DNA of 64,000 nucleotides from Ramazzottius varieornatus. Its lineage: Eukaryota > Animalia > Tardigrada. Positions within the stretch are counted from its first letter, which is position 1, and every line of letters begins with the position of its first letter. Below, piece after piece: positions 2,259 to 55,788 of this stretch. A model generated the notes under the pieces. The model searched no databases and was not told where the DNA came from. It saw nothing but the letters and a program-made list of their open reading frames with translations. The stretch spans positions 1,497,773-1,561,772 of the forward strand of contig BDGG01000010.1 of assembly GCA_001949185.1 (NCBI GenBank). The letters are read 5' to 3'. The position numbers and the translations under genes are program-made.

Positions 2259-5200
2259 CTATGAGGGTTCTCCGTTTCCTTCTCCATTTTCTTCGTCCTC
2301 GTTGGCGGGCTCCTCATCGCCGTAATCATCTTCTTCGTACATACGTCTGAGCTCTTCGATTTCCTCGTTATCTATTAACAAAGCAACGAAAGCTGTTTAG
2401 TGATGGTTTGTTTTGTGGTCAGTAATGTGCAGAATGCCTTGACAGTGACTAGCGGTTACCTAATTCGCCCCATAGCCAGTAGGTCTTCAAAGCGCCCTTC
2501 CCTTTCACGAACACCTCTCCGCGTTCTTCCACGTCGAACTGTCCCGTTGCGTCAAGGAAGCGCTTGCTTGTCAGGCTCATTTGAATTTTCATGTCTACAA
2601 GAACGAAATAATCGCACGCAAAAAGTCGAAGAACCGAAGGAAGAGCTAATCGAACCTTCTCCGCCCGTCAGCATTTGGAGTGAGACACTCATTGTATCAC
2701 CGAACAGAAGATACCGTGGAATCTGGTCTCCGACGACGCCGGCCATAACAGGACCTAGAATGACACCAATGCGTTAGTGCTGCAGGCTTTCAATGCTAGA
2801 AATACGACGTTTCTGTGACCACACCAATGACACGATCATACCTGCGTGGATTCCCATACGGATACCAAGCCGCGCTTCGGGTCGATGCTTTACTCGGAAC
2901 ATTGGAATACTATAGACCAGCTTGAGCGCAACTCGTGCAATTTCCCCGGCATGCTGACTCCCATTACGGTGAGGCAATCCCGAGACAACCTACAGAAATA
3001 TATGTTTAGCTTATGGAACGAAGGTAGGTTAAATTGCGAGACAAAAGCATAAGGAAGGCTATACACAAGTCCACCACATGGCAAGGAAAGCGTACCAGTG
3101 TGTTTTCCTTGTAGGTATCCACCTTGTAGGCATCGTGCTGTGCAATAATATCGTCGTAGAAGTCGCTAATATCATTCAAAAGTTCCACCATTTGGATCGG
3201 CGTGCTCTCCGCAGCAATATCGGCATACTGTTTGATATCACAGTGCATCACGCTGACCAGTTCATAGTTTTCGGGCCTTGGTTTCTCGCCAATCTTCATT
3301 GTTTCCGCAATCTTCCTAAAAGCCATGTTGTGTCACCTCCCTCCTTTTATCCAGGTCACAGCAATCAGAAAAACACTTACTTGGGTAAAACACTATACAA
3401 CAGCTGATCGCTCTTATTCTTTTCGTCGAGCAATGCCTGTCCTTTGTCTTCGACAATCTGATTAATGTTGAGCTCCATATCCTCCATCTGCTGAAGGAGG
3501 GTATCCAGGATATTACTTCGTTCTCCCATACCTCTGAAAACAGTCAAAAAGGTCAGTTCATCTCACCAACAAATGCGCTTGTATGAAAAGCCGCGAAAAG
3601 ATTCTTTACAGCTGTTTCCCCAGTTCTTTCATATTAGCTCGGACTTGCACCATGTTCGGTCTCTTCGTTGGGTCCACGGCCCAACATCGATCGCAAAGCT
3701 CGATGAGCTCCGCCGGACAAGCTGTTTCGTCGATTTTTGGTACAAACCGAGGTTGGGTCTCGTTCGCGCTGACTCTGATGTGCTCCAGTATTTCTATAAG
3801 AAAAGAAGAGTGAGCACAGACGGTAAACGATATCACAGACACAGACCTCCCCTACCGCACCTTCTTGTGGGATGGCGTACATCGAAAACGGTTTTGACCG
3901 CAACACCAGTTCCTGAATAATTATTCCGAAACTGTACACATCACCCTTCTGGCTGACAGAACTGATAACCTCGTATCGCGACAGCGCTTCGGCTCGAAGG
4001 TGTTCCGGTGCTTTCCACAGTTGCATAGTCATGTACTCTGGCTCTCTTTTCACCGCCCACAGCTCAGCTAGCGAAAGCTCGAAGAAGGCGTGCAGACCAT
4101 AGTCGCCAACCTTCAGCACGAACCTCGAGTCGATGTAGCAGCACAATGACGTGAGTCTTCCGTGAACATGCAGGACACTCTTGTGCAGGTAGGAAGTGCC
4201 TTTCATGCAGTCGCTGATTAAGGAGAAACGCATAGTCCATTCCAGCTTTGTGTTGGGATCGGCTATCAAGTCCTGAAAAACAGACAACACAGTAGAAAAT
4301 CGTTTGGGTCGTTGGTGAATGCTGAATGGAAAATCTCACCGTCAAGCAGCCTTTTGAGCAGTTTTCGTAGATGATGACGATGCGGTCATCATCCAGACAT
4401 GCTCCTTTGAAGGCCATAAGGTTGTCGTGTGACAATGTCCGGACTTCCCGTGCTTGCTTCAAAAGGGTCTTATTAACCACGATCCTTCGCTTCTTGCACC
4501 ATCGAACAGTGACCGCTTGCTTCTTCCACAAGCCCGTGTTCTCGGTTATCCGAATGGCCGCACTTTGCCGCGAGGCAGCTGTCAAGAAGCGGGCCACATG
4601 TAACCGATGTGCAAAATCGCTGAGTAGAGGTAAAAAAAGCTACTGAAGAATCATTCGGTGGGAAGGCTTTCAGTTTCAGTGCACTAGAAACTCAAAAACT
4701 ACCTTCTTGTAGCTTAATTTCGGAGACCATTTTTAATTCCTGGATTCTCTCCATCTCTTCATCGTCAGTGCCGGCACCTTCTCGTTTCTCGCCGCTCTCA
4801 TCTGTGTACGAGGTCCCGCCAGGTCGCACAAGGTCCATATCCTCCCACTTCGCTATCCAAGCCTTGTCTTCTCTTTCAAGCTTCTTCATGTGCTGGTACT
4901 TGAAGATCAGTATGATGATCAGAATCAGACCCAAAGGTACTGCCACACCAGCCGCAATCGACGCGATCGGCAACTTGTAAACTAAAAATGGTGTGAAAAT
5001 CTGATGAGATTACTGTACTGGTAAACTCGCATACCGGAAGTATGCAAAAGTTTGTTCACGTACCTACCTTCAGGCACACAAGGCCCTTCAATCCCACTGT
5101 ATCCACAAACGGGAGTGTTGACAGGAGGAGAAACACCGTTCGGCCATACTATGTTCGGTAGCTCAGCGTATGTGCTGTTCGTGCCATAGAAGACTGCAAC

Positions 5201-7173: not shown

Positions 7174-8995
7174 TCAGTCCTTGGTCGCTTTGATCTCCAG
7201 CTTCTTCTCCATGATCCCTTTGGTGAGCTTCATATTGGCCAGATCCTTACTCAAAGTCTTCACTTTGGCCATGAGGGCGTTGAAAGCCTTCATCCTCCCG
7301 GCTTTTATCGCTTCCAGGCTTTCGCTGTCTTCTGCTATCACCCGATCACAAAGCGCTCCCAGCTCTGCTTCATCATTGATCTGGTACCACTTGTTATCCT
7401 CAATCACCTTCGCCACATCTGTGGACCCACTTCCGTCTTTCACAAGGTCTTGTAGAATGTTCAGAACTATCGAACGAGGAACTTTCTCTTCGGACAGCAT
7501 ATCGGTCAACAAGGCGAAATCTTTCGGCTTCACTGGAATCTCTTCGGCAGACTCGGAAAGATTCGCGGTGTTCAGGATACCCACCAACCCATTCATGATG
7601 AGTGTGGAAACGTTCTGTGGTGTGGAATTTTTCGCCATAGGGACAGCGGCATCGAACAGAGATGACAGACGTTCATCCGCGACAATCATAGCCGCATGAA
7701 TGGGGAAGAGTTTGAACTCTTCCAAGTATCTCGTTCGTTTCACTGAAGGCAGCTCGGGGAGTTCTTTCTTCACCACAGCGATATCAACCTGGCCTTGCGG
7801 GACTATTTGAGAGTTTTCAGAGTTGAATAAGCGTAAGGGAGGAAGGTTGGGTTCAGGCATGTATCGATAATCTTGCAGGATCTCCTTGTCCCTCATCGGG
7901 TACGTCCTCCCCGTCTTCAGGTCAAAGCCTCTGGTCTCATTCACAACTTTCTCACCCTTTTCCAGTATCTTAACCTGGCGGGATATCTCGTAGTCTATGG
8001 CTTTCGAAATGAACTTCATACTAGCCAAGTTCTTCACTTCGCTCCGTACGCCTAATGGTTCGCCCTTCCGATGCACAGAGATGTTCGCATCAACCCGCAA
8101 CGACCCTTCGAACATCCGTACATCACAGACGTGAAGAACTTTGAGGATCAGAACGAGTTCGCGAACGAACGCGGCTGCTTGCTCGCCCGAAGTGAAGTCA
8201 GGCTTGGTAATGATCTCCATTAAGCCGATGCCAGCACGGTTCAGGTCTATGAGGCTGTTGTTATCTTGTGGATTGTGAATGCTCTTACCGCTGTCTTGCT
8301 CCAGCTGGATTTGTTCAATGTTGACAATGTGCTTGTGCGGTTGTTTGTTAACAACTTGAACGTACTCCATCCATCCGCTCGCGGCAATAGGCTTGTAGCG
8401 CTGAGTAATTTGGTATCCGGTAGGAAGATCGGCGTAGAAGTAATGCTTACGATCGAACAGCGAGACTGGGTTAATCGTACAATTCAGAGCGAACGCAGTT
8501 TTCACGGCAGCTTCCACACAGCGTCTGTTCAGCACCTGGAATAAGCACATAGCGTCGTACCGATGGTAACCCATCCAGTAAATTCATTTCCGGTGGCTGC
8601 TTACTGGTAATGTCCCAGGTGTAGCGCAGTCGAACAAGGACACTTGCGTGTTACTGGGTGCAGAAAACTCCGTTCCGCTTCCGGAGAATAGCTTGCTTTT
8701 TGACTTGATCTGAGCATGGATTTCCAACCCGATAACGCCACTCCATCCATCAGTCTGCTGCTTCGGCTCTGCTTGCGCGTCGCTTTTCTGGCCTTTGGGT
8801 GGCCTGTTCCGTGTACCTTGGAGCAGAGGATAGGTGTGCAGGTATCGCCTGCACTGTCTGGCTATCTGCAAACAGAGAATCATCGTCCAAATACTGGAGG
8901 CCGGAAAATCTCAGCGTCCACCGGAAAAAAAGAACCAAGTCAAACGAAATTAACGAACTGAATTACGCGTACTGAATTCTGAAATCTAATACCAT
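7174..8995 (-). CDS. GATB: Glutamyl-tRNA(Gln) amidotransferase subunit B, mitochondrial (GatB/PET112)
   Basis: [23 protein letters not shown](V)[66 protein letters not shown]. The first coding exon is probably ATG only (8993-8995, followed by GT), spliced to the presequence-like [15 protein letters not shown]. Confidence 0.95.
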
Positions 8996-9510: not shown

Positions 9511-11239
9511 ATGGCCATGGTACGTAGCTAGATATCACGCCCGTCCTGCGGTATAACCAGATCGTTTTTGCAGAACGAGAACGAGGAATACTACTGTTTC
9601 GAGGTTGTTTGGGACTACGAGGGAAATATTCGACAGTTTGTCCTCCGTTTCTTCCCTCTGCAAGAAAGTTCGGAACTGGTATATTCGTAAAATGCACTAT
9701 CGTTCGGGTGCTACGCGTACTATTGTTACAGTACTGTATAACGTCTCTCTGTCATGCTAGTACGATGTTATGAAGCACAAGACCTTCATGAAGAGGACAA
9801 GAACGTCCAACCTCAAGTTATCCCACCTGAACATCGGCAAAACTGTCTCTGTTCTCAACCGCCAGCTCCTCGTGATGAACTACGCTGATGTCAAAACCCG
9901 CGTGACTATGGAGAAGCTCTTCCAAAGGTACAGAATATATGCCTTGATTAGCTGCTGGGGGGGGGGGGGTNNNNNNNNNNNNNNNNNNNNNNNNNNNNNN
10001 NNNNNNNNNNNNNNNNNNNNGGGGGGGGGGGGGTTTTGCGACGACATCATGCATCCTGATATCTTTCTTTTTCTCTTAGAACAGCTGTCGTGTTCAAGGT
10101 CAATGAGAACATGGGCGATGTCCTGGACTCCCTAACCGGTCACTGGCTCACTACAAACTCCTCCAATATGGTCATCACCCGGGTGAAAATGACCATCCTG
10201 GACCGGGAAGACATCCTGAAGCTCGGACTTGTTGGTCAATGTGGTTTCAGGTAGCCACAGCCTCTAATGGGTCACTGATAAGCTAATCGCCGCTTTTGAT
10301 ATATACGTTTCTTCGACCGGTAGTGATCCGTGCATTGCAGCGGAAGTTACGGGCGAAGATGCGGTGAAGCATTGCCAAGACATCCTGGCTATGGTTAGCG
10401 CCAAGTTCATGATCCACGACTTCTGCTACGCCTCACCCGATCCTCAAACAGCCAAATGGACACTCAGCTTACTTTTTGACAAGCCAAGGAGGAACACTTC
10501 GGTTTGTGGTAATGGGATACTGTGCCTAATAAAACCACACTCAGTGCGCGAAGGTTCGAGTTCAAATGTTATCGTGGTTTGGTCGTACCAGGAAGTTTTA
10601 AGTTAGTGGGTATAACGTTCGCTGCGGTTGCAGGAGCTACTCCGAAGATCATTCAGCACATCTTACGATATGGGTTCAAGATCTTAGCCATCGAAACGCT
10701 CGTATTGGAGCGTCACATTGCAGAAGGGTTCTTGGAGCTGTACAGAGGAGTTGTTCCCGAATATTTGGTAACCTCGTTATACTGATTGCGTTCGCTGACT
10801 TGTGCTGACTACTCTGTCGCTGTAGCCATGGGTCGACGACTTCGCGTCAGGACCCTGTGTGGCTCTTGAGGTGGAGGAATTTTGCCCTTTGGGTCCACGT
10901 GAGATTCCGAGAGAGCCGTGTCAAGATCCACCGCCAGCCCCTGCCTGTAACCAGACTTATGACAAGTTCCGTAGTTTCGCTGGTCCAGCCGATCCAGTAA
11001 GTTTCCAGCTTCACATGATCGAATTGCAGAAAGTATCCAAACTTCGACCTTGTGGGATTAGGTAGTTTCCTTTTCAGAATATTGCTCGAACAATTCGACC
11101 AAGTTCGCTACGTGCTTTGTTCGGGAGAGATAAGGTTTTCAACGGTGTTCACTGCACTGATCTTCAGAGGGACTGTCAGAGCGATTTAGAGTTTATTTTT
11201 CGATACATTGCTCGTCCCGAAATAATTGCTACTAGATAA
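9511..11239 (+). CDS. NME7: Nucleoside diphosphate kinase 7 (DM10 domain + two NDK-like domains), multi-exon
   Basis: DM10: YCFEVVWD...FVLRFFP...YDVMKHKTFMKRT...LNIGKTVSVLNRQLLVMNYAD. NDK domain B: LCLIKPHSVREG, AEGFLELYRGVVPEY, SGPCVALEV, FRSFAGPADP, RPSSLRALFG, NGVHCTDL. Stop TAA at 11237-11239. Confidence 0.9.
9971..10020. other. Assembly gap (50 N) flanked by poly-G runs, inside an NME7 intron
   Basis: Run of n with G homopolymers on both sides. Confidence 0.98.
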
Positions 11240-11536
11240 CATAAAGCTTCACGAGTAAATCTTGATGCAGCTCGGCGTCGTATAATGGTTCTCGAGGTAG
11301 CCGTTTTGCTGGTTGTCCGGACAGATTATTTTTCGTAAACTCTTAGAGCATCGAAGCTGAGGAAATTTCGGTGGTAAAAAAGCACTTGTTAAAGTTTAAA
11401 ACAGTAAAATACTAAAAGTGTGTGAGCAAAAGAGAAAGAAACTGCACGCACAATGCGTTTAACAACGAGGTTTTATCCTGAGGGCAAGGCATGGAACTGT
11501 CTGGTTCTGCATCTTTAGCAAACCATTGCGCAGTGT

Positions 11537-14097
11537 TTAGTCCATCTTCACGCAGATGGTTCGCGATTCGGTGAAGAAGTCCAGCGACTCTTTTGCTCCT
11601 TCGCGTCCCACTCCGGACGCCTTACTTCCGCCAAACGGCATATTCAGGTCTAACCAACGAATATGGTTAGTTTCGTACAAGCAGATTTAGACACGGTAGA
11701 CAAGCCACTACAGTACGTACCTCGTAACAGCCAGCAATTTGCCCACACAGTTCCCACCTGCAGACGCTGGGCTAGCCGATGAGTTCGTGACAAATCTCGC
11801 GTCCAAACGACGGCGCACAGACCATACTTCACGTTGTTTGCTCGTGCGATTGCTTCTTCTTCGTCGCAAAAAGGAACGACGCAAGTGACTGGTCCGAAGA
11901 TCTCGTCCTGCATGCAGGAAGACCTACGACAGTACCACATGTCATCAGGACTACACTCAATGTTACCAAATATCATTAAGAAAAATCTTCCTTACGTGTC
12001 TGAGACGTTGGTGATGATGGTCGGTGGAAGGTAATAGCCCTGTAAAATACAATCTGGCTTCGTCGGGAAACCAAGCTTGCGTATTCTAAAGGTAAACAAT
12101 TCAGCCCGAGTTCGCTTACATTTCTGTGAGACTCTGGAATATGGTCCGGCGTTTCAGCACCGCCGCATTCAATCACTGCGCCTTCCGATTCCGCGAGCAT
12201 CACAAAGCCGCGGACCTTGTCTCTGTGTTGCTCACTAATCAAGGCCCCCATGTTGACACTTGCATCCGTGGGAACTCCGACCTTGTACTGCCTACGAAAG
12301 AAGAATCATAAGGCTGCTATAAGGTACTTGAAATCGTTAGGTTTTTTTATAACGACTGCTTGAGCCCGTACTTGGTGGCTTCCCGGAAGCGCTGAAGGAA
12401 CTCGTCGTATATTCCACGCTGCACGAATATGCGGCTGCTGCACAGGCAGACTTCCCCCTGATTCAAGAAGCTGGATTTCACGCAGCCAGGGATGACTTTA
12501 TCCAGGTCGGCGTCGTCGAAAATGATGGCAGCATTCTTTCCTCCCAGCTGCAAACCCGGACCACATACAGTAATAAGCCGAAATTCACAAGCATTTCATT
12601 TCTAACCTCGAGTGACAGTTTTTTGCAGTGTGGTGCGGAGACCTGGCCGATTCTCTGACCAACTGCGGTACTTCCGGTGAAGGAAATTAGAGGGACATCT
12701 GGGTGCTTCACTAAAGCTTCTCCCACTTTCCACCCATAGCCAAAGACAACTGTAATAATACTGTGTAATAATACTGTATCCGTAATAGTACTGTGCAGTT
12801 TCCTACCGTTCACGACGCCGGCTGGAAGTCCTATAAATTAGCATCACCTTTAACAGCGCAAGTCCGAATTCAAGACTAGTCTTGCATGTACTCACCCGCA
12901 TCTTGGAATACTTTGCATAACATCCATGTGGTAACGGACGTCATCTCGCTTGGCTTTGCGACGACAGTACAACCTACGAGAAGAACCCTGTGAGCTCCAC
13001 GTATTTTCAGTTATCAGCTTCGCAGTAATCAGATTCGTCAACGTCTGCTACCATGGACCTTGACCGCAGAAGCACAAATCTCCTCGTCGGATGCGAAAAC
13101 GCAGCACCAGGCTTACCTGCTGCTAATGCCGGGGCAATCTTGAATGTCAGGAGATACAGAGGAAGGTTCCAGGGGCTGCGAAAATCAAGAAAGATGTCAA
13201 TACAAGGACACTCGAGATGGCCGAACGGACGTCGTGTTACTGTTATTCTCGGGTTTCAAGAGCCGATCCATCTTCTAGTTCTCTACTATCGGCATACTAA
13301 TAACTTTGACCTACCTAATTAGCCCGGCCACGCCTACTGGCGAACGGTGGACATAATTCAAGGCTCCCAACTGTTCGTTGTAGCTCGAGCTGTAAAGGTT
13401 AACGTAATAAAATAAAATTATATCATACTTGGATCGATGTGTTCAAAAAGATAAGGGGTACTTACGTAGACAGATAGTGTTGAACAGCAGAAGCAAAAAA
13501 TCGGAAGTTATGAATGGCCCGTGGGATATCCAAAGCTTTAGCTAACGCAACAGGTTTCCCGGAGTCTCGTGATTCTGCTATTGCAAAATCTTCCAGTCTC
13601 TCTTCCAGCAAGTCTGCGATCTTGGTTAAGTAACTTGCTCGTTCTTGAGGTGATTTAGAAGACCACCTATGGGAACACAAATATAAATCACATACGTAAG
13701 TCACCGTGCTCGCAGGTGACAAGAGAGAGCCTTACCTTGGAAATTCATTATTGGCAGCCAGCACAGCTCTGTCCACTTCCACTTCGCCAGAATCCGGGAC
13801 TTTCGCCCACACTTCTCCAGTCGACGGATCATAGCTATACGAGTCACAGAAGCAGTAACTTGAAATGCATAGCAGAGTGTAGTGGAACAAGAGTCTTTCC
13901 ACTGGTCAGTATGAAAAGTATACGCGTACATCCGAATAACCGACCAAATGGTTATATTACAGGTGCGAAGTTTGCAATGCCAAAGCTTCCAGTTCTAGAT
14001 TAGAAGTTTACCTGTCGATAAAACCCAGTCCTTCATTCGGCACAAAACTTCCGCGAATAAAGTTCTCCAGTATCAGCATGGAACTCTCCACAGGCAT
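11537..14097 (-). CDS. ALDH8A1: 2-aminomuconic semialdehyde dehydrogenase (aldehyde dehydrogenase 8A1), multi-exon
   Basis: MLILENFIRG, YDPSTGEVWAKVPDSG, ESRDSGKP...DIPRAIHNFRFFA, PWNLPLYLLTFKIAPALAAG, KPSEMTSVT, FTGSTAVG, SLELGGKN, SSFLNQGEVCLCSSRI (catalytic Cys), EIFGPV, GTVWANCWL, PFGG.K.SGVGREG. Confidence 0.92.
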
Positions 14098-14892
14098 TGA
14101 GATTAGTGAACTCTCAATGATTATACGGTAGGAATATGTTATAGACAGTTGTACCTAACAAATTTTCTCCAAAAGTCCTCGTCACTAGCCTTGTCGCAGT
14201 AACAGTGTTTGTGTCGCAGAACGAAGTAAAGCAATGGAGCTTTCTTTACATTTTCAATAGCTTATCTAACTTTACCACCACTCGATGATAAACATCGACG
14301 ACACAACGAAATTACAAGTCAATCGACCGTAGATGCAGTGAGCAGATAATGGGTTACCCTGATTGACTGATTGTCTGCATGGTGTGATGGGTCGACTAGG
14401 TGGAGCTACAAGCAAAACTCCAAGGAACAACTGAGAAAGTGGGTTCTTTCATGGTTCTAAACACGAGTACTCTTCCATTTTCGGGACAATGAGGACCAAA
14501 GCCTAAAGCGGTCCCAATGGATGCGACCACTACCAGATGGTCCGGTGCATTACATTATAAAAAAGGCCCCGAGCTTCAGTGCGATGATATTGTCAGAGAG
14601 TAAGGGACTCTGAATTACATGAGAAACTAGTTCTTCGGATGAGTAAATAATATAATAGATATAGGAGATTGATCATTCATTATTTTACTTCCAGCAGAAG
14701 TCAAAGCGTCTGTTTGGAGCGAAGAAACGGAACAACAAGCACCAGCCTTTGGTATGACGGATCAACATTAACATAACAACAGCGTCAACGTGCCGTCGAA
14801 CAGCGTCGAACATGCTGAAGGTATATACGTAGTACCGTACGTTCTTGGATATAAATCATGAAAATAGTTTCGTGTAGAGTCCTGAGAAATAT

Positions 14893-15728
14893 TCAAGCCT
14901 TCTCGACAGATCCCTGATCGTGTTTCTCAGCTTCGACCTTAGCTTTGCCACTGTACCTGACCACGCCCAGTTCGATGACTTGCGCTTTCACAATGTCGTC
15001 GGACCGTACTTCAGATCTTCCTGAACCCGACACCACCGTGCTGACCGTCCCGGCATTTAGATCTCTTCCATGAAAGACACCCGAGCCACTCACCTGCAAG
15101 ATATAAATACATGGCCTTAAACCAGAGCTTTGTCCCTAATTGTAATATTTCGAGAGCAACAAGATAAACAACTTGCCACGACATTCGCGTTGGTGACGGT
15201 CCCTGACAGTGTGAGGACCCCAGAATCGCTGATCACCGCGTTCAGGTTTTTGCTGTTGATATCGCTGATGAAGCCAGCACTTCCGCTAACGACGGCATTG
15301 AGGAACTCAGTGTTAATATTCTTGCTTGTGACTTGCGCTGAACCACCCACCACCACACGAAGACTTTGCGGATTCAATGGGGACTGGATGTTCACTTGAG
15401 AAGAGCCGTCGGCTATCAATGTAATGATGGACTTCACGGTAATCTGCACTTGGAAGATGCCGGTAAAGCGGACATTCCAGTCGATGAAACGAATCTTCAG
15501 TGTGCCGTTCTCCACTGGTGTTTCGATGTTGTTGATCACATCCTTGTTTCCCAGCAGCTTCAAGCTCTCCGTTGTGCCTGTGGTTAACGTTACAGAAAAT
15601 GGTCCCGCTACCGCAATTCCTGTAAAGTCAGATACATTCCGAGTTTCAGTAGCTTGTGGGACTACTACACCGATATTACAGATAAAGAAAATCCCCGCGA
15701 TACAAATCAGTGTTGCGAAAGATACCAT
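14893..15728 (-). CDS. Secreted DUF2807 (putative auto-transporter adhesin head GIN domain) beta-solenoid protein, bacterial-type; 2 exons (15728-15177, 15093-14893)
   Basis: Signal peptide MVSFATLICIAGIFFICNIG, then ETRNVSDFTGIAVAGPFSVTLT, GNKDVINNIETPVENGTLKI, repeated (V/I)SGS(G/A) units and C-terminal VRYSGKAKV...GSVEK, typical of Bacteroidetes DUF2807 proteins. An 83-bp intron (GCAAGT...TTGCAG) restores one continuous frame. Confidence 0.85.
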
Positions 15729-16498
15729 TTTCAATAATGTACAGTAACAATGTTCATAATAGCGAAGTGGAGAAAAGTAAAAGCGAGCAAGTTTCGTACC
15801 ACACTGTTTTCTTTAATAACGAAGCGTGTGATGAGTGTCTATGTGCAACTTCATTACTTCATGACCCCAAGGCGTATTCGAAAACTGGAAAAATCGTGTC
15901 TTTATTACATCAATGGCAATTCTTGCGTAAGAGAAGCGCTACTGAAAGGAAATTCCCCCTGAGGGACCTAGACGTGACCGACATCGACTTTTACAGGAAA
16001 CCTTATTTCGAAAGGTCTGTTTTGAATGTACGTGTGGAATAGAGTAGGTCAGGTCTACTTTCTTGGGCTTCGAGTTCTTGGCAACGTCTGTACGATTACA
16101 CCAGTTTAGCAGAGAGGCTGATTTAAGTGAACGAAAGTCGGCGATCCACGATCAAGTCAACAAAATTGGTTGTTGGACAATTGTAGTAGTTACTAGCTAG
16201 CAAGAAATTGAAATCTCAACGATATGCCAACAGATCGCTGAGATTATCACGGAAAGGTTAGCGCATTCAGTTTAGGCCGTCGAAGACCTAGGACTCCCAG
16301 GAGTAGCTGTCTTCGCGGGGAACCTGGAACCGTTGCAGTAGGTAAGGATGAAATGTAGTGCATTACGTGACATGACTTACTAGTGCTCTGTTCGAGAAAC
16401 TGCGACGTTGCGTTACCTTAACGCATGACTTACACAGCCAGATCGGTACAGTATAACCAAACTTACCAAAGCGTTTGGTATATACTGTATCTATGACC

Positions 16499-16506
16499 TA
16501 TAAATA
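16499..16506 (+). promoter_or_regulatory. Probable TATA box of the PLAAT-like gene
   Basis: TATAAATA upstream of a putative non-coding exon ending GAG|GTATGT (~16647), preceded by an inverted repeat at 16447-16490. Confidence 0.4.
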
Positions 16507-16747
16507 CAGCACAATTTTATTCAAGTTCAATTTTAGCTTCCTTCTGTCCTCGACATTTCCGCATCCTTGCTCTCGGACTTCTTACTGAACCGTGAGGGAG
16601 AGAAGGGAGAGGACCACCGAGAGGACGGTGCGACTACCTGAGGCGAGGTATGTTCACATACTAGTCTGAATTACGTTATCTAATCATCTGTCTCAACGTA
16701 CCTTGTCATCTTCTCAGACGGCACAGAATTCAGTGTCACGGTCGTTC

Positions 16748-17920
16748 ATGTGGAATCGAGCGGTAGTTGCCGTGGCAAATCTAGCAGCGCGCTTTCTCGT
16801 GACCGAGCTCAGGACCAGTGCTCCCTCTCAAGGATTTTGTCGATCCTCCTCCACCGAAGCTTGCAGAATGGCTGACAACATTCCAGGCTCCACATCGGAC
16901 GAGCGTCCTCGAGCTGACGCTCAAGGCCGACCTCGTCACTCTTCCCATCTCGTCACTCCATTCACGGATTCCGCACACCTGAAACCTCTACCTGGCGATC
17001 TGATAGAGTTCAAACGAGATCTCTACTCCCACTGGGTAATTACCGTAACTTCGAGAAACATGGAATTACCGTAACTTCGTTGTCATGTCATGTCACACCA
17101 TGTCATTATCTTGGAAGTTCACTCTGCTTGCCGATAGGCTCTATACATCGGGGATGGAAAAGTTATCAACGTGAGGGGTGCTCAGCCTGGTAAAAGCAGC
17201 GACATTTCAATGACGGGAAGCGCCACAGTTCGGATGGAAGACTTGACGACAGTTGCTGGATTCAGCCAAGTTCGGATCAACAACCAGGAAGCAGAGGTCG
17301 GTACTCGTACTCTTTGTCGGTCATTCTAACCAAAGACTTTTTTCCAATGACCTAATCCTTTCTCGTCTATGACTCCATGATGAGAAGTAGCCAAATCGGA
17401 TTTGCTTTTCATCCAGCAATGGAAAGGGCAAGGGTGATGAGTAATCCTTTGGCGGGAAGCGAAACTTTCTGAGGGTTGTGGGGTGAAGATTTCAGAAAAT
17501 AGCAGGGAACCCTCGTGAAGTTTCCGTGTTCTCCGTCGCGCAATTTCTGGAGTGTTGTGTTTTAGGCTACATCTCGCGGTCTGCAAGCCATACCGGTTGA
17601 CGAGCTGATGGAGAAGGCCAAGAAGCTGGTTGGCACCGCCGTTCCTTACGATGTCTTGAGCCGTAACTGCGAGCACTATGTAACCGAATGGCGGTACGGC
17701 GAGCCGTGGAGCGAACAGGTACGGGAGATTGACGTATATTTACCGACCGATGCACTTACATCAATTTTCATGGTGACTGTCTCCGGATTATCAACTGTTT
17801 TTCTGTGAACAGGTTGAGTCTGGCATGAAGCAGTTCGGTGACGTCCGGAAGCTAGCGCAACAGAAAGACTTGCCCGAGCTGATCGGAATGCTGGGAAACT
17901 TTATGAATCAGCGCCGATGA
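16748..17920 (+). CDS. PLAAT/HRASLS/LRAT-family (NlpC/P60 NC-domain) phospholipase A/acyltransferase, 4 coding exons
   Basis: PLPGDLIEFKRDLYSHW|ALYIGDGKVINV, VRINN, KAKKLVG...YDVLSRNCEHYVTEWRYGEPWSEQV (NCEHF-type catalytic motif). Start is ATG 16748 or 16868. Confidence 0.88.
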
Positions 17921-18465
17921 ATGTTGTATTCGGATTCCTCCGTTTTTCATTTCGATAGTCGTTGAGCGTAGCAGCTTTTTGTGATTTTATTTCCAGAATT
18001 TATGTTTTAGTGATCGTAGCACGATGTATCGTGTCTGTAGTATTGTGTGCACGGTTGAGGATGATAGTTGTTCTGTGTCCCTCGATATCTCTCTTACTGT
18101 TTCCTACATAACTTTCACCGGGTTTTCCCTCTATTCCAGTTCCACTGGACCACTTTGACCCTTTTGGTTTCTTTTTATTGCAAATTCCCTGTTGATAGAA
18201 TACTTCAGAATGAACTCAAAATTTCGTGGTCGGCTGGCCAACAACATAACTTAATTCTTTTAGTCGAAAAATATCATCTTTCGTCAACAGGATAAATTGG
18301 GCAAAGAGAGAGACAGGATAAATTAGAGGAAGAGAGAAAGAGAGGGGTTGGATAAAAAAGAGTTTCGAAATTCTGGGTAAAAGTTCAAAGTTAATACGCT
18401 CGTTCATAAAATCGTTCACATGGAGGATATCGCTCGCTTCCGAGTTAAAATATATTCAAAAATCA

Positions 18466-25338: not shown

Positions 25339-27015
25339 TCACAAAGGACCATCTCCAGCACCAGCAGAGAATTTAGTACGAGCCCACTCAATATAATCAG
25401 GCTTAGCCGCTGCTTTATATTCCTGAATCAGATTATTCACTACCTCGCGAGATTCATCCATGTCTTCCAACCCGTTAGCGAACTTCGGCTCTCTTTTGAA
25501 CGCATCCAGGAACGCGCCCTTCTTCTTCAGCTTGTCATACTGCTTTAGCATCGAGTCGAAAAGTACATGGACGCCAGTGTGGTTCGTCATCATCAAGCCG
25601 CTGACGCGATGGTTGGTAGACACGAAGGGGGACTTACGCGAATGAGCCACATGCAGACTGGCGGGTCCCCATTCAATGAAACGAGCGAGCTTCCGCTCTC
25701 GAATACGCTGTAGACTCTTCTGTACCTGTAAGGCAGAATACGGCCGAAGTCAGGTTCGACCCGGAAGTGAACTATACCGGCAGAGTGGCTTACCTCGCCC
25801 GATTCCACCTCGCCCTGAAGAATGTTCAGAATGGAAATGAATGCGTTTTCTGCTTCATTGTACTTCCCCAGTGATGCCATCATGTTCTTAGTTTGAAGGA
25901 GACGACGCATCACATCGAAGACTGTAGTTTTCTGGATGCCACCGGTGCCCTGATCGAGCGATGTCAAGGGCGTATAGCCTATGACATGACATGACATAAC
26001 ATAGAGAGACGTGTCAAGAACACAATGATGAAGAAAAAGTGAAAAACAGATGGAAAACAATATTTTCCCATGGTTTTCAAGAAAGTTCGTACCGGTCATG
26101 ATGAAATGGAGGTTGGGTGTGGGAATGAGCGGAGAGATCAGCGAAATGAGATCGTTGTGCATGTAGCTTGGATAGCGAAGAGTGGAAGTGCTGGCGGACA
26201 TGACGGTGGAGACGATGTTGTTGATTTCGTCGTTTGTGGGCTTCTCGATGCGTAGACGTTCCGCGGCGATGTTATGCAGAGCGGTGTTGTCCATCACCAC
26301 AACACAGTCAGCATGCTCGGCCAGACGACGGAGGGTCAGCATGGAGTTGTACGGACCGACGACGACGTCGCTGTTCTCGTCTTGATTAGGAAAGATGGAG
26401 TACGTCTGAATGATCTTTTTGGGGAAGCGATCGTGAATGTTTTCCAGGACGTAGGAACCCATACCCGAACCTGTACCTCCAGCGATCGAATGGCACAGAC
26501 AAAATCCTTCCAAGCCATCACTCCCGTCTGCTTCTCGATTGATGATATCGAATACTTTCTCCTGCAGGAAAACAAATCATTCAGTAATCAGTATCTCTTA
26601 CTCTATCTTACTTCCTACCGTTTTTCAATTCGGAAATGCGAAAAGCGATGCAGCTTACGGAATGCTGCTCTCCCAGGCGATATCCAGCAGCCCAGTTGTT
26701 TCCTGCTCCTCCACCTTGGTTGTCCATGTAGAGATTCTCGGGGTTATACAGCTTGGCATATTCGGAATTGCGGATGGTATTGATGACTCGGGGCTCCAGA
26801 TCCATAAGAACAGCTCGAGGAATGTAGTGGTCGTCGTCAGCTTGGTAGAAGAAGACATCCTTCCGATCATAGTTTCCTCCTGCTGCTGTCAAAGCTCCGT
26901 TGATCAACCTTCCGTCTGTGTCGATGCCATGCTCCTTGCACAGCTTCTTCCAGAACTCATTCCCGATCTGGTTACCGCACTGGCCTAGCTGCAAAGTAAT
27001 GATCTCACGAGGCAT
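25339..27015 (-). CDS. TUBG1: Gamma-tubulin, multi-exon
   Basis: [87 protein letters not shown]. Confidence 0.97.
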
Positions 27016-27226
27016 TTTCCGTCCTCACGCGTGGCAGACGTAACAGAAGAGATCCAGACGTACCTAAATTGGCGGTGAAAATCCCCTTGCGGAGATAAAC
27101 AAAGGTTGATCAGCTGATTGTTGATTATCGGTCGTCACCACCTGGCTCTTACATGACATGACAGACTATCCACATAACGTCATGCCTTACAACATAGTGA
27201 CTTACTTAGTAAACGACCAGCTAACT

Positions 27227-54167: not shown

Positions 54168-55788
54168 ATGGATTTGGAAGAAAACTTCCCCGTATCAGAA
54201 GGTGAGAGAATGCTGGAGCTGCAAATGTTCCGTGAAAGATGGAAAGAAGAATTGTCAAGCGGAGCAATCAAGGACCAATCGGACCACAATGCGCGAGGAG
54301 GAACGGCAACAACTTTTCGGGGTCTTTCGAAGAAGACGCGAGCTGAAGAGAAAGAAGCTGCTACATCGCGGTCCAAGTTTGAAATAGTACGTATAATTTT
54401 ATACTGTGAATGACATTGTCATAGTTTCTGTTAGTGCGTCTAATAGCGATGATCCAACTTTGCTTGCAGGCTGCAGAAATATTCCAGGAGGGCATCAAAG
54501 AAGAGCGCAGTGGTCGTTTATACGAAGCAATCAGTCTGTACAAGCGAGCTATGCAACTTGATCCAGATATAGAATTCAAGTTCGAGAAGCAGATCGACAA
54601 GCGGAAGAAAAACCTCCGCCCAGATGACACACCGGAAGTCGAGAAGAAAAATGTACCTGCATCCCCCGAGGACATTCTGAAAAGTCTAAAGAAGTACAGC
54701 CCATACGAGAATGGTGTGTGCGAGCGGGATCTCGATATCGAAGCCGCGCATATCGGCGACCTGCCTTACGAGGTCGTCCAGTACCTGACTCAATGGATCG
54801 TTTCTTCCGAGCTAGACCTCCTGTCTTTAGAGAGGTTCGCCATGGTCTGTCGAGGGTTCTACAGAACAGCGCGCGAGAACAACATATGGCGACTGGCATG
54901 CCTGAGGATATGGTCCGAGTTGTGTGGAACGCCCAAAGAGCTGCATTATGACTCTTGGAGGGAAATGTTCATCCATCGTCCGCAGGTGCGCTTTAACGGA
55001 CTTTACATTAGCAGATACACCTACATCCGTCGCGGAGAAGCTTCTTTCATCGATAACTCCGTCGAATACCAAGCTTACTACACAGTGCAGTACTTTCGCT
55101 TCTTCCGGTTCTTCGCGGATGGAACAGTCTTATATGCGAATACGCCTGGTAAGATTGTTGGTTCATTAGTTCATTTTCCTACTTAGTATGCTAACAAGTT
55201 TTTTTTTCTTGCAGAGGAACCAGCGGCGATAGTACCTCGGCTGCGTGACATGGAAATTGCCCAGAGCAAAGATGGTGGGGTGGTCCAAATTCTTCGTGGT
55301 AACTACGAGTTCTCCAACGGTGGAACAAGCGTAGTCGTGTACCTGAGAAGGGAAAAGCCGGAAGAGTTCACCGGACGAACATACAAAAGACGTACGAAGA
55401 AAAAGATAGAATTCGATATACTGACAATGGTAAGGGCGAACTCAGCAATATACTAACTGAAAAAATACTATCCATCTCCCCTCGGTCGGTTCCATAACGT
55501 GACCTTCGTTCATCAGGAGCTGAACATTCGCGACAGCAGAGAACGTCTCCACGGACGGCTGGACTGGCGGAAGTACTCCATCACACGGGTTACTGGGTAA
55601 GATAAGAAACTACTTTTCATGTTGAAATGAGGTCTCGATTGTATTCTTTCATTATGGTAATACGCATCATTCATACTTTCAGGCATGTGAAAACAACTTC
55701 CGCCGTCGATGTTCATCAACACTTTCCACCGCTGTATTACTCGCGTGTGAAAAGTTACTCAGCACAGTCTGAGCAACCGCTGCTGTAA
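54168..55788 (+). CDS. FBXO9: F-box only protein 9
   Basis: FRERWKEEL; TPR-like AAEIFQEGIKEERSGRLYEAISLYKRAMQLDPDIE; F-box HIGDLPYEVV...LERFAMVCRGFY; SWREMFIHRPQVRFNGLYIS, VQYFRFFRFFADG; C-terminal LYYSRVKSY. Confidence 0.92.

What the first reader, a model, noticed from the sequence alone, without database searches (positions are those of the whole stretch)
14893..15728. Bacterial-type DUF2807/GIN-domain gene domesticated in an animal genome, with a GC-AG intron
Seen: signal peptide plus a DUF2807-like beta-solenoid with repeated VSGSG units. It is split by an 83-bp intron with a non-canonical GC donor (GTG|GCAAGT ... TTGCAG|GTG, 15176-15094) and lies between unambiguous metazoan genes (ALDH8A1, PLAAT), which argues against contamination. 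Known: this family is mainly bacterial (especially Bacteroidetes) and its function is unknown. Inference: horizontally acquired, intron-gained, secreted beta-solenoid. Possible roles include adhesion, cuticle/egg coat, or ice/carbohydrate surface binding.
Basis: partly seen in the sequence, partly recalled or inferred. Interest (0 to 1): 0.75.

Follow-up and report, generated by a model that had tools for sequence, protein, structure and literature searches.

The report
Bacteria-derived secreted solenoid family in tardigrades
This is a real, spliced tardigrade gene already listed as acquired from bacteria, and it belongs to a small family of likely secreted beta-solenoid proteins, probably from one old transfer, whose reshaped water-repelling face likely binds surfaces and may help protect them during drying.

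Summary
Window 15728-14893 (-) encodes a 250-aa DUF2807/GIN beta-helix identical to Ramazzottius varieornatus RvY_14593. Contigs from 7 of 7 RNA-like runs skip exactly 83 nt, and GC-AG is the only spliceosomal reading. Orthologs in Hypsibius and Paramacrobiotus rule out contamination. The transfer is not new: Yoshida 2017 (S4 Data) puts the Hypsibius ortholog in its highest HGT class and names RvY_14593 as its homolog. I found no paper describing the family: at least 3-6 paralogs per species, one clade (94/94 to 98/97) with Sphingobacteriaceae as best bacterial hits. This gene's subfamily has one extra solenoid rung. The family shares an outward Val/Asn face (V165 in 19 of 19, against 9 of 71 other homologs). 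Two Hypsibius paralogs rise 88- and 27-fold in the dried state, but this gene's ortholog is not on that list. No catalytic residues are conserved. Best reading, inferred: a secreted, non-enzymatic surface-binding protein, with some paralogs recruited to desiccation. The ligand is unknown. The intron is ordinary and likely a Ramazzottius-lineage gain.

The parts
15177..15728 (-). Exon 1 coding part, 184 codons: leader, N-terminal subdomain and first solenoid rungs, including the extra rung (about aa 136-154)
15657..15728 (-). Hydrophobic leader, likely signal peptide (about aa 1-24; inferred)
   Evidence: hydropathy; low-confidence helix 4-16; solved homologs align from about aa 22-25
15094..15176 (-). 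83-nt phase-0 GC-AG intron
   Evidence: skipped in contigs of 7 of 7 RNA-like runs; placement test; donor scores 3.63 against -3.79 and -9.41 for the GT alternatives
14893..15093 (-). Exon 2 coding part, 66 codons plus stop: last solenoid rungs
15183..15293 (-). Codons for the Val/Asn outward face typical of the tardigrade clade (V146, N163, V165, N180, N182)
   Evidence: outward orientation inferred from strand alternation and from an Asp at the same place in 3LYC
14579..14892 (-). 3' untranslated region covered by RNA-like contigs (furthest end 14579)
15729..15828 (-). 5' untranslated region covered by RNA-like contigs (furthest end 15828)
11179..14262 (-). Downstream neighbour: spliced aldehyde dehydrogenase, 490 aa, 12 introns (outer ends approximate)
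15927..18328 (+). Upstream, divergent neighbour: spliced LRAT/PLAAT-family gene (ends approximate)

Best explanation
The gene encodes a DUF2807 beta-helix, likely secreted and likely non-enzymatic, that probably entered an early eutardigrade once from a Bacteroidota bacterium, multiplied, and likely works as a surface-binding coat that sticks through a flat valine/asparagine face to extracellular hydrophobic surfaces or to copies of itself. SHOWN here: gene structure and splicing, family membership, predicted fold, paralogs in three named genera, one clade, the extra rung and the Val/Asn enrichment. FROM PUBLISHED TABLES: HGT status and paralog expression. INFERRED: Sphingobacteriaceae-like donor, secretion, outward orientation of the stripe, and the binding role. 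I put the steps at about 0.95 for bacterial origin, 0.8 for a single transfer, 0.85 for secretion and 0.4 for the surface-coating role. Short paralogs appear recruited to the drying response, where they would shield membranes or the cuticle interface as water leaves. The long form in this window is more likely a constitutive member doing the same kind of job.
For: Fold: AlphaFold pLDDT 93.6; Z 31.7, rmsd 1.6 over 229 residues to 3LJY, and TM 0.87 to 4OPW. Origin: after the tardigrade-like hits the score drops from 273 to 139 bits; named neighbours are Sphingobacteriaceae; Yoshida's best non-metazoan hit scores 107 bits against 39 for the best metazoan hit. One clade of 19, 14 or 13 rows at 97/91, 98/97 (C20 model) and 94/94. 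Joining the long subfamily to a long Pedobacter form is rejected, p-AU 2e-5. Extra rung in 10 of 10 long-subfamily rows, 0 of 9 other clade rows, 5 of 71 other rows. Face A position 5 is hydrophobic in 65% and 59% of clade cells against 19%; position 3 is Asn in 38% and 43% against 14%; V165 19 of 19 against 9 of 71. Columns invariant across 62 rows are only L77, G176 and G233. Expression in Hypsibius tuns: bHd17075 from 3-4 to 278-378 TPM (88-fold), bHd17574 from 2-9 to 122-212 TPM (27-fold). Ramazzottius RvY_01030 is steady at 85-103 FPKM in adults, the induced-versus-constitutive pattern Yoshida reports for CAHS/SAHS. A Porphyromonas DUF2807 knockout loses adhesion and biofilm, and solved homologs are described as dimers to tetramers (PMC10949514 abstract and discussion).
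Against: No ligand, location or phenotype is known for any tardigrade member. The ortholog of this very gene (bHd07466 = BV898_00800, matched by scaffold and homolog) is absent from the list of 1,422 desiccation-induced genes and falls about 2-fold after irradiation and bleomycin. Induction of 2 genes among 1,422 is a weak filter. The Val/Asn counts come from related sequences, so they are not independent events. The Sphingobacteriaceae grouping is weak in the trees (86/42, 82/40, unresolved). Three clade members (P0166, P0277, P0306) form a subgroup with no named organism and could be non-tardigrade. Ravi et al. regard the wider Toastrack fold as an intracellular protein-docking platform.
Confidence: 0.4

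Rival explanations
1. Structural adhesive: the protein is a glue or building block of cuticle, eggshell or gut lining, unrelated to stress, keeping the adhesin-like role of its bacterial relatives.
For: Adhesion phenotype of the Porphyromonas homolog. This gene's ortholog is not desiccation-induced. RvY_01030 is higher in adults than in embryos, 85-103 against 15-25 FPKM, which fits cuticle or gut better than eggshell.
Against: Two paralogs rise 27- and 88-fold in tuns. No chitin-binding or anchoring domain passes the cut-off in Pfam.
Confidence: 0.22
2. Microbe-facing binder: a secreted lectin-like or decoy protein that binds bacterial or fungal surfaces, glycans or membrane-active peptides.
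For: Toastrack-fold proteins sit in envelope-stress operons tied to resistance against membrane-permeabilising agents. Paralog expansion and 25-55% divergence are typical of recognition families (inference).
Against: The remodelled face is aliphatic and amide-rich, without a conserved aromatic row as expected for glycan stacking. Neighbours of Sphingobacteriaceae homologs showed no psp/lia genes among 31 of 50 scanned.
Confidence: 0.18
3. Ice-binding protein: the flat Val/Asn/Ser rows order water and bind ice, helping control extracellular freezing.
For: A flat beta-helix face with small-residue ladders and fewer charges than in bacteria. Thr/Asx rows bind ice in other solenoids, and Val can stand in for Thr (recalled).
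Against: No regular TxT arrays: 0-4 per protein. The bacterial antifreeze solenoid 3P4G matches only at generic level, Z 10.6, rmsd 5.8. The patch covers only 3-5 rungs. No cold-induction data were seen.
Confidence: 0.12
4. Secreted polysaccharide lyase or pectinase for feeding on algae or moss, as the title of structure 3LYC suggests.
For: Best PDB sequence hit is titled 'putative pectinase'; true lyases appear lower in the fold list.
Against: Lyases score Z 10 or less against 30 for DUF2807 structures. No invariant Asp, Glu, Lys or His. The 3LYC title is a depositor's guess.
Confidence: 0.04
5. Not a transfer: either bacterial contamination or an ancient vertically inherited animal gene.
For: The Toastrack fold occurs sporadically in eukaryotes, for example human FAM185A and an Entamoeba DUF2807 annotation. 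Most database hits are unnamed, and only the best 120-150 of thousands were listed.
Against: Spliced transcripts in 5 studies; orthologs in three named genera; GC3 0.56 against 0.55 for the neighbour. No human, fly or nematode homolog in Anoud's table. Every named non-tardigrade hit was bacterial.
Confidence: 0.04

Closest known systems
DUF2807 / PF10988 proteins of Bacteroidota (PDB 3LJY, 3JX8, 3LYC, 4OPW; Porphyromonas PGN_1547)
   Same: Whole domain, same fold (Z 30-32), stand-alone about 240-250 aa with an N-terminal leader.
   Different: Animal nuclear gene with an intron; Val/Asn face; one more rung than the nearest Sphingobacteriaceae forms; more acidic mature chain in the proteins tabulated.
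Tardigrade HGT catalogue of Yoshida 2017 (S4 Data) and Hashimoto 2016 (Supplementary Data 2)
   Same: The same genes: RvY_14593, RvY_12128 and RvY_01030 with their Hypsibius orthologs, already flagged as DUF2807 and bacterial.
   Different: Table rows only, with single-gene trees. DUF2807 does not occur in Yoshida's main text; no family tree, structure or function is given in what I saw.
Toastrack superfamily (DUF2154/DUF4097/DUF2807; LiaG, LiaF, human FAM185A)
   Same: Same beta-helix fold with an intertwined N-terminal region; the two flat sheets are proposed as docking surfaces.
   Different: Described as intracellular and fused or linked to PspC/LiaI and regulators; this protein has a leader and no fusion.
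SAHS secreted heat-soluble proteins of tardigrades
   Same: Secreted family; induced on drying in Hypsibius and constitutive in Ramazzottius, as seen for some paralogs here.
   Different: Unrelated FABP-like barrel (search listing), tardigrade-born, much higher expression (CAHS/SAHS median 1,917 TPM against 120-380).

Membership tests
DUF2807 (PF10988) | Score above the Pfam gathering threshold over the whole profile | tested here: met
   118.5 bits against 24.2, profile 1-181 of 181
DUF2807 (PF10988) | Beta-helix fold with N-terminal subdomain as in 3LJY/4OPW | tested here: met
   Predicted model: Z 31.7, rmsd 1.6, 229 aligned; TM 0.87
Trimeric autotransporter adhesin | Stalk and C-terminal membrane anchor in the same chain | tested here: not met
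   250 aa, domain ends at aa 235, no other Pfam domain above cut-off; best 19-residue hydropathy in the mature chain 1.47
Trimeric autotransporter adhesin | Trimer formation | not tested
   No complex prediction was obtained
Toastrack partner of the PSP/Lia system | Intracellular, fused or linked to PspC/LiaI-TM or regulators | tested here: not met
   Leader present, no fusion; eukaryotic spliced neighbours
High-confidence tardigrade HGT gene | Bacterial best hits and tree placement, expression, persistence across species, host-genome context | tested here: met
   published class 'Phylogeny_and_expression_and_perdurance' for the ortholog
Beta-helix polysaccharide lyase | Conserved calcium-binding acids and catalytic base | tested here: not met
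   Invariant columns are structural only
Beta-solenoid ice-binding protein | Regular Thr-x-Thr or Thr/Asx rows on a flat face | tested here: inconclusive
   No regular TxT arrays, but Val and Asn rows are present
Beta-solenoid ice-binding protein | Thermal hysteresis or ice shaping | not testable with these tools
   Needs purified protein
Anhydrobiosis protectant (CAHS/SAHS-like behaviour) | Induced on drying in Hypsibius, constitutive in Ramazzottius | tested here: inconclusive
   Fits bHd17574/RvY_01030, and bHd17075 on the Hypsibius side; the ortholog of this gene is not on the induced list; the RvY_14593 row was beyond the cut of the table

The most novel reading that the evidence does not exclude
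Eutardigrades took one bacterial Toastrack gene and rebuilt it into an unrecognised family of folded, secreted desiccation protectants: beta-solenoids whose Val/Asn face coats membranes or assembles into an extracellular scaffold (or binds ice) as the animal dries, alongside the CAHS/SAHS proteins.
Probability: 0.25. Interest if true: 0.75.

Novelty: new variant of a known kind. Interest (0 to 1): 0.42.

Why it matters
The transfer itself is one row among 133 high-confidence tardigrade HGT genes and would not surprise a specialist. The family view adds a concrete, testable candidate. It is a bacteria-derived, well-folded, likely secreted family kept in four tardigrade genera (Ramazzottius, Hypsibius, Paramacrobiotus, and Acutuncus by best-hit tables). 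It has a conserved new surface, and two members are strongly induced on drying. If these protect extracellular surfaces, horizontal transfer contributed a structural protectant to anhydrobiosis, not only enzymes such as catalase and trehalose synthase. It would also give a first ligand handle on DUF2807, a large bacterial family of unknown biochemistry.

Tried and rejected
No whole genome was held, so Ramazzottius paralogs were counted from published tables, not searched. No run is on record as RNA; the label is a guess, though these contigs also skip the neighbours' GT-AG introns. Homodimer prediction was not obtained because the queue was full; self-association stays open. The metagenome scan kept 80 of 121 loci, all at 24-36% identity, none tardigrade-like, so intron positions in other species could not be read from DNA. 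The first genome scan found nothing; the second gave 29 Bacteroidota loci by design of the query. Their neighbours (31 of 50 ORFs from 10 loci scanned) were M1/S15 peptidases, 2-oxoglutarate dehydrogenase, FloA and SusD, with no clear functional hint. NCBIfam gave no match for the protein. The ESM Atlas returned only bacterial or unrecorded clusters, which says nothing on small eukaryotic clusters. Which rung was duplicated could not be settled; the extra rung is closest to the preceding one, 16.7 against 13.9. The Acutuncus gene rb_377 rises about 20-fold after irradiation and 24-fold after bleomycin and hits this gene, but it also hits unrelated genes (RvY_12021, Pi3K21B), so I did not count it. 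Alternative GT donors were rejected. Paper searches with no hit: DUF2807+tardigrade (13), four-term adhesin search (27), gene ids (28), tardigrade/adhesin/anhydrobiosis/GIN domain (82), head GIN domain+HGT+eukaryote (83). Earlier scan findings: none. AvP supplements: no hit, 2 of 3 files unreadable.

Full report
Observation. The minus strand holds a 184-codon exon (15728-15177), an 83-nt intron (15176-15094) and a 66-codon exon with stop (15093-14893). Exon 1 matches Pfam DUF2807 positions 1-129 and exon 2 positions 132-181. The joined frame equals database protein P0003, named RvY_14593 of the tardigrade Ramazzottius varieornatus. So the gene model, GC donor included, is already in GenBank.

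Splicing. I laid 8 of the 24 listed runs. All 7 RNA-like runs (5 studies) have one contig that skips exactly 83 nt; the DNA run covers 14300-16300 unspliced in one 14,341-nt contig but may be the source assembly. Of three equivalent placements only one gives spliceosomal ends, GC..AG; the GT sites 3 and 6 nt upstream would give 86 or 89 nt. On a small matrix from the 15 neighbouring GT donors, with the first two intron bases ignored, the GC donor scores 3.63, inside their range of 1.8-7.5, against -3.8 and -9.4 for the GT alternatives. The flanking dehydrogenase and PLAAT genes are spliced in the same runs. GC3 is 0.56 against 0.55 for the dehydrogenase.

Distribution. A search with exon 1 gave 4 hits among 213 candidates: Ramazzottius, Hypsibius, Paramacrobiotus and one unnamed. 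The profile search gave 163 hits among 7,992 scored, 120 listed; seven tardigrade-like proteins score 273 bits or more and the next 139. The full HMMER search found 19,841 hits, 150 listed, and added a further Paramacrobiotus paralog and unnamed relatives. Four hits with animal-style leaders led to a second subfamily with named Hypsibius and Paramacrobiotus members (1,051 hits among 7,988 scored, 120 listed). Published tables give at least 3 members in Ramazzottius, 6 in Hypsibius by best hit (file cut) and 3 in Acutuncus (file cut, one model mixed). I found 4 in Paramacrobiotus.

Tree. A first FastTree of 260 rows (length 200-330, redundant cluster members dropped) grouped the 10 long-form proteins at 100. 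From a 90-row alignment I built trees of 60, 40 and 38 rows, dropping mostly unnamed bacterial-type rows for time, plus 5 and 6 clade rows in the two smaller trees. The long subfamily, the short subfamily and an unnamed subgroup of three form one clade at 97/91 (bootstrap not fully settled), 98/97 under the C20 model, and 94/94. Nesting among Sphingobacteriaceae is weak (86/42, 82/40, unresolved in the third), so the donor family rests on similarity ranks. The long subfamily has an extra rung of about 19 residues in 10 of 10 rows, against 0 of 9 and 5 of 71. Long bacterial forms are scattered, and joining the long subfamily with the long Pedobacter protein is rejected (p-AU 2e-5); I tested only that one. 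One transfer followed by duplication and an internal rung gain is the simplest reading (inference).

Prior knowledge. Yoshida 2017 (PMC5531438; I saw passages, part 1 of section 9 and supplement rows) lists bHd07466.1 with homolog RvY_14593.1, DUF2807, HGT index 67.8, highest class, intron count 0, and two more DUF2807 pairs. DUF2807 does not occur in its main text. Hashimoto 2016 (PMC5034306; passages and supplement rows) flags RvY_01030 as putative HGT, index 96.1, 2 exons; the table is cut at 8,991 rows, before this gene, and its PDF supplement could not be read. Five paper searches found no description of the tardigrade family; subscription journals are mostly missing from the library. Since the Hypsibius ortholog has no intron, the GC-AG intron is likely a later gain, though loss in Hypsibius is not excluded.

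Structure. The model has mean pLDDT 93.6 and matches Parabacteroides DUF2807 structures at Z 30-32 over 229 residues; lyases and an antifreeze solenoid fall near Z 10. Across 62 rows only L77, G176 and G233 are invariant, which argues against an enzyme. The clade differs from the 71 other rows on one face: V165 in 19 of 19 against 9 of 71, N182 in 17 of 19 against 11 of 71, N163 in 14 against 10, N180 in 14 against 17. Position 5 of the strand is hydrophobic in 59-65% of clade cells against 19%. These positions alternate with the core residues and one aligns with an Asp in 3LYC, so they likely point outward. The rows are related, so the counts are not independent, but the valine is kept across proteins only 25-55% identical.

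Expression. In Hypsibius tuns bHd17075 rises 88-fold and bHd17574 27-fold. By scaffold and homolog these are BV898_04013 and BV898_04518, the latter a short form in my tree. RvY_01030 is steady at 85-103 FPKM in active, dried and rehydrated Ramazzottius. Against this, the ortholog of the window gene is not among the 1,422 induced genes, and in Anoud 2024 (PMC11233135; passages and supplement rows) it falls about 2-fold after irradiation and bleomycin, while its protein is detected by one peptide and barely changes. Other Hypsibius paralogs move under 2.3-fold either way after irradiation.

Mechanism. I commit to a secreted, non-enzymatic surface binder that uses the Val/Asn face on extracellular hydrophobic surfaces or on itself (0.4), with short paralogs recruited to drying. 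Rivals are a structural glue (0.22), a microbe or glycan binder (0.18), an ice binder (0.12), a lyase (0.04) and no transfer (0.04). Supporting context: a Porphyromonas DUF2807 mutant loses adhesion (PMC10949514, abstract and discussion), and the Toastrack sheets are proposed as docking surfaces (10.1101/2020.09.24.301986, passages). The oligomer state stays open because no complex prediction was obtained.

Verdict. The residual value is an undescribed family with a remodelled surface and a desiccation lead in paralogs. Interest 0.42.

Noticed in passing
window 15828-15927: RNA-like contigs of this gene (-) and one on the PLAAT side end only about 100 nt apart in run X4, which may mean a shared bidirectional promoter.
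   Followed up: no
window 15093-15088 (-): Exon 2 starts with GTGAGT directly after the acceptor AG, a donor-like word. After splicing it scores only 0.58 and no contig shows its use.
   Followed up: partly
P0152 (48-kb contig): A 133-aa tardigrade-like fragment stops near residue 134 of this protein, which may mark an intron at a different site in another species; DNA not seen.
   Followed up: no
P0154 and P0168; P0008 and P0151: Each pair has the same longest-contig length (5,898 and 3,541,892 nt), so each pair likely lies on one contig, suggesting local duplication.
   Followed up: no
P0166, P0277, P0306: A third subgroup inside the clade with no named organism; P0166 is a whole ORF on a 21.5-kb contig. 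It could be tardigrade, another animal or the donor's kin.
   Followed up: partly
window 7177-8910 (-): GatB (Glu-tRNA amidotransferase B) gene with one 469-codon open stretch, long for this intron-rich region.
   Followed up: no
window 3009-4639 (-), 25342-27024 (-), 54425-55183 (+): Kinase-homology plus guanylate cyclase exons, a tubulin gene and an F-box gene: ordinary eukaryotic content (8 other ORFs plus the two GatB ORFs hit Pfam among 102 of 124 scanned).
   Followed up: no
window 9971-10020: A 50-N assembly gap between G-rich runs, about 5 kb from the gene.
   Followed up: no
L008, L010, L016, L023, L024, L028: In several Bacteroidota loci an ORF on the same strand lies just upstream of the DUF2807 gene; the 4 scanned (L010, L016, L023, L028) are M1 peptidases.
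   Followed up: partly
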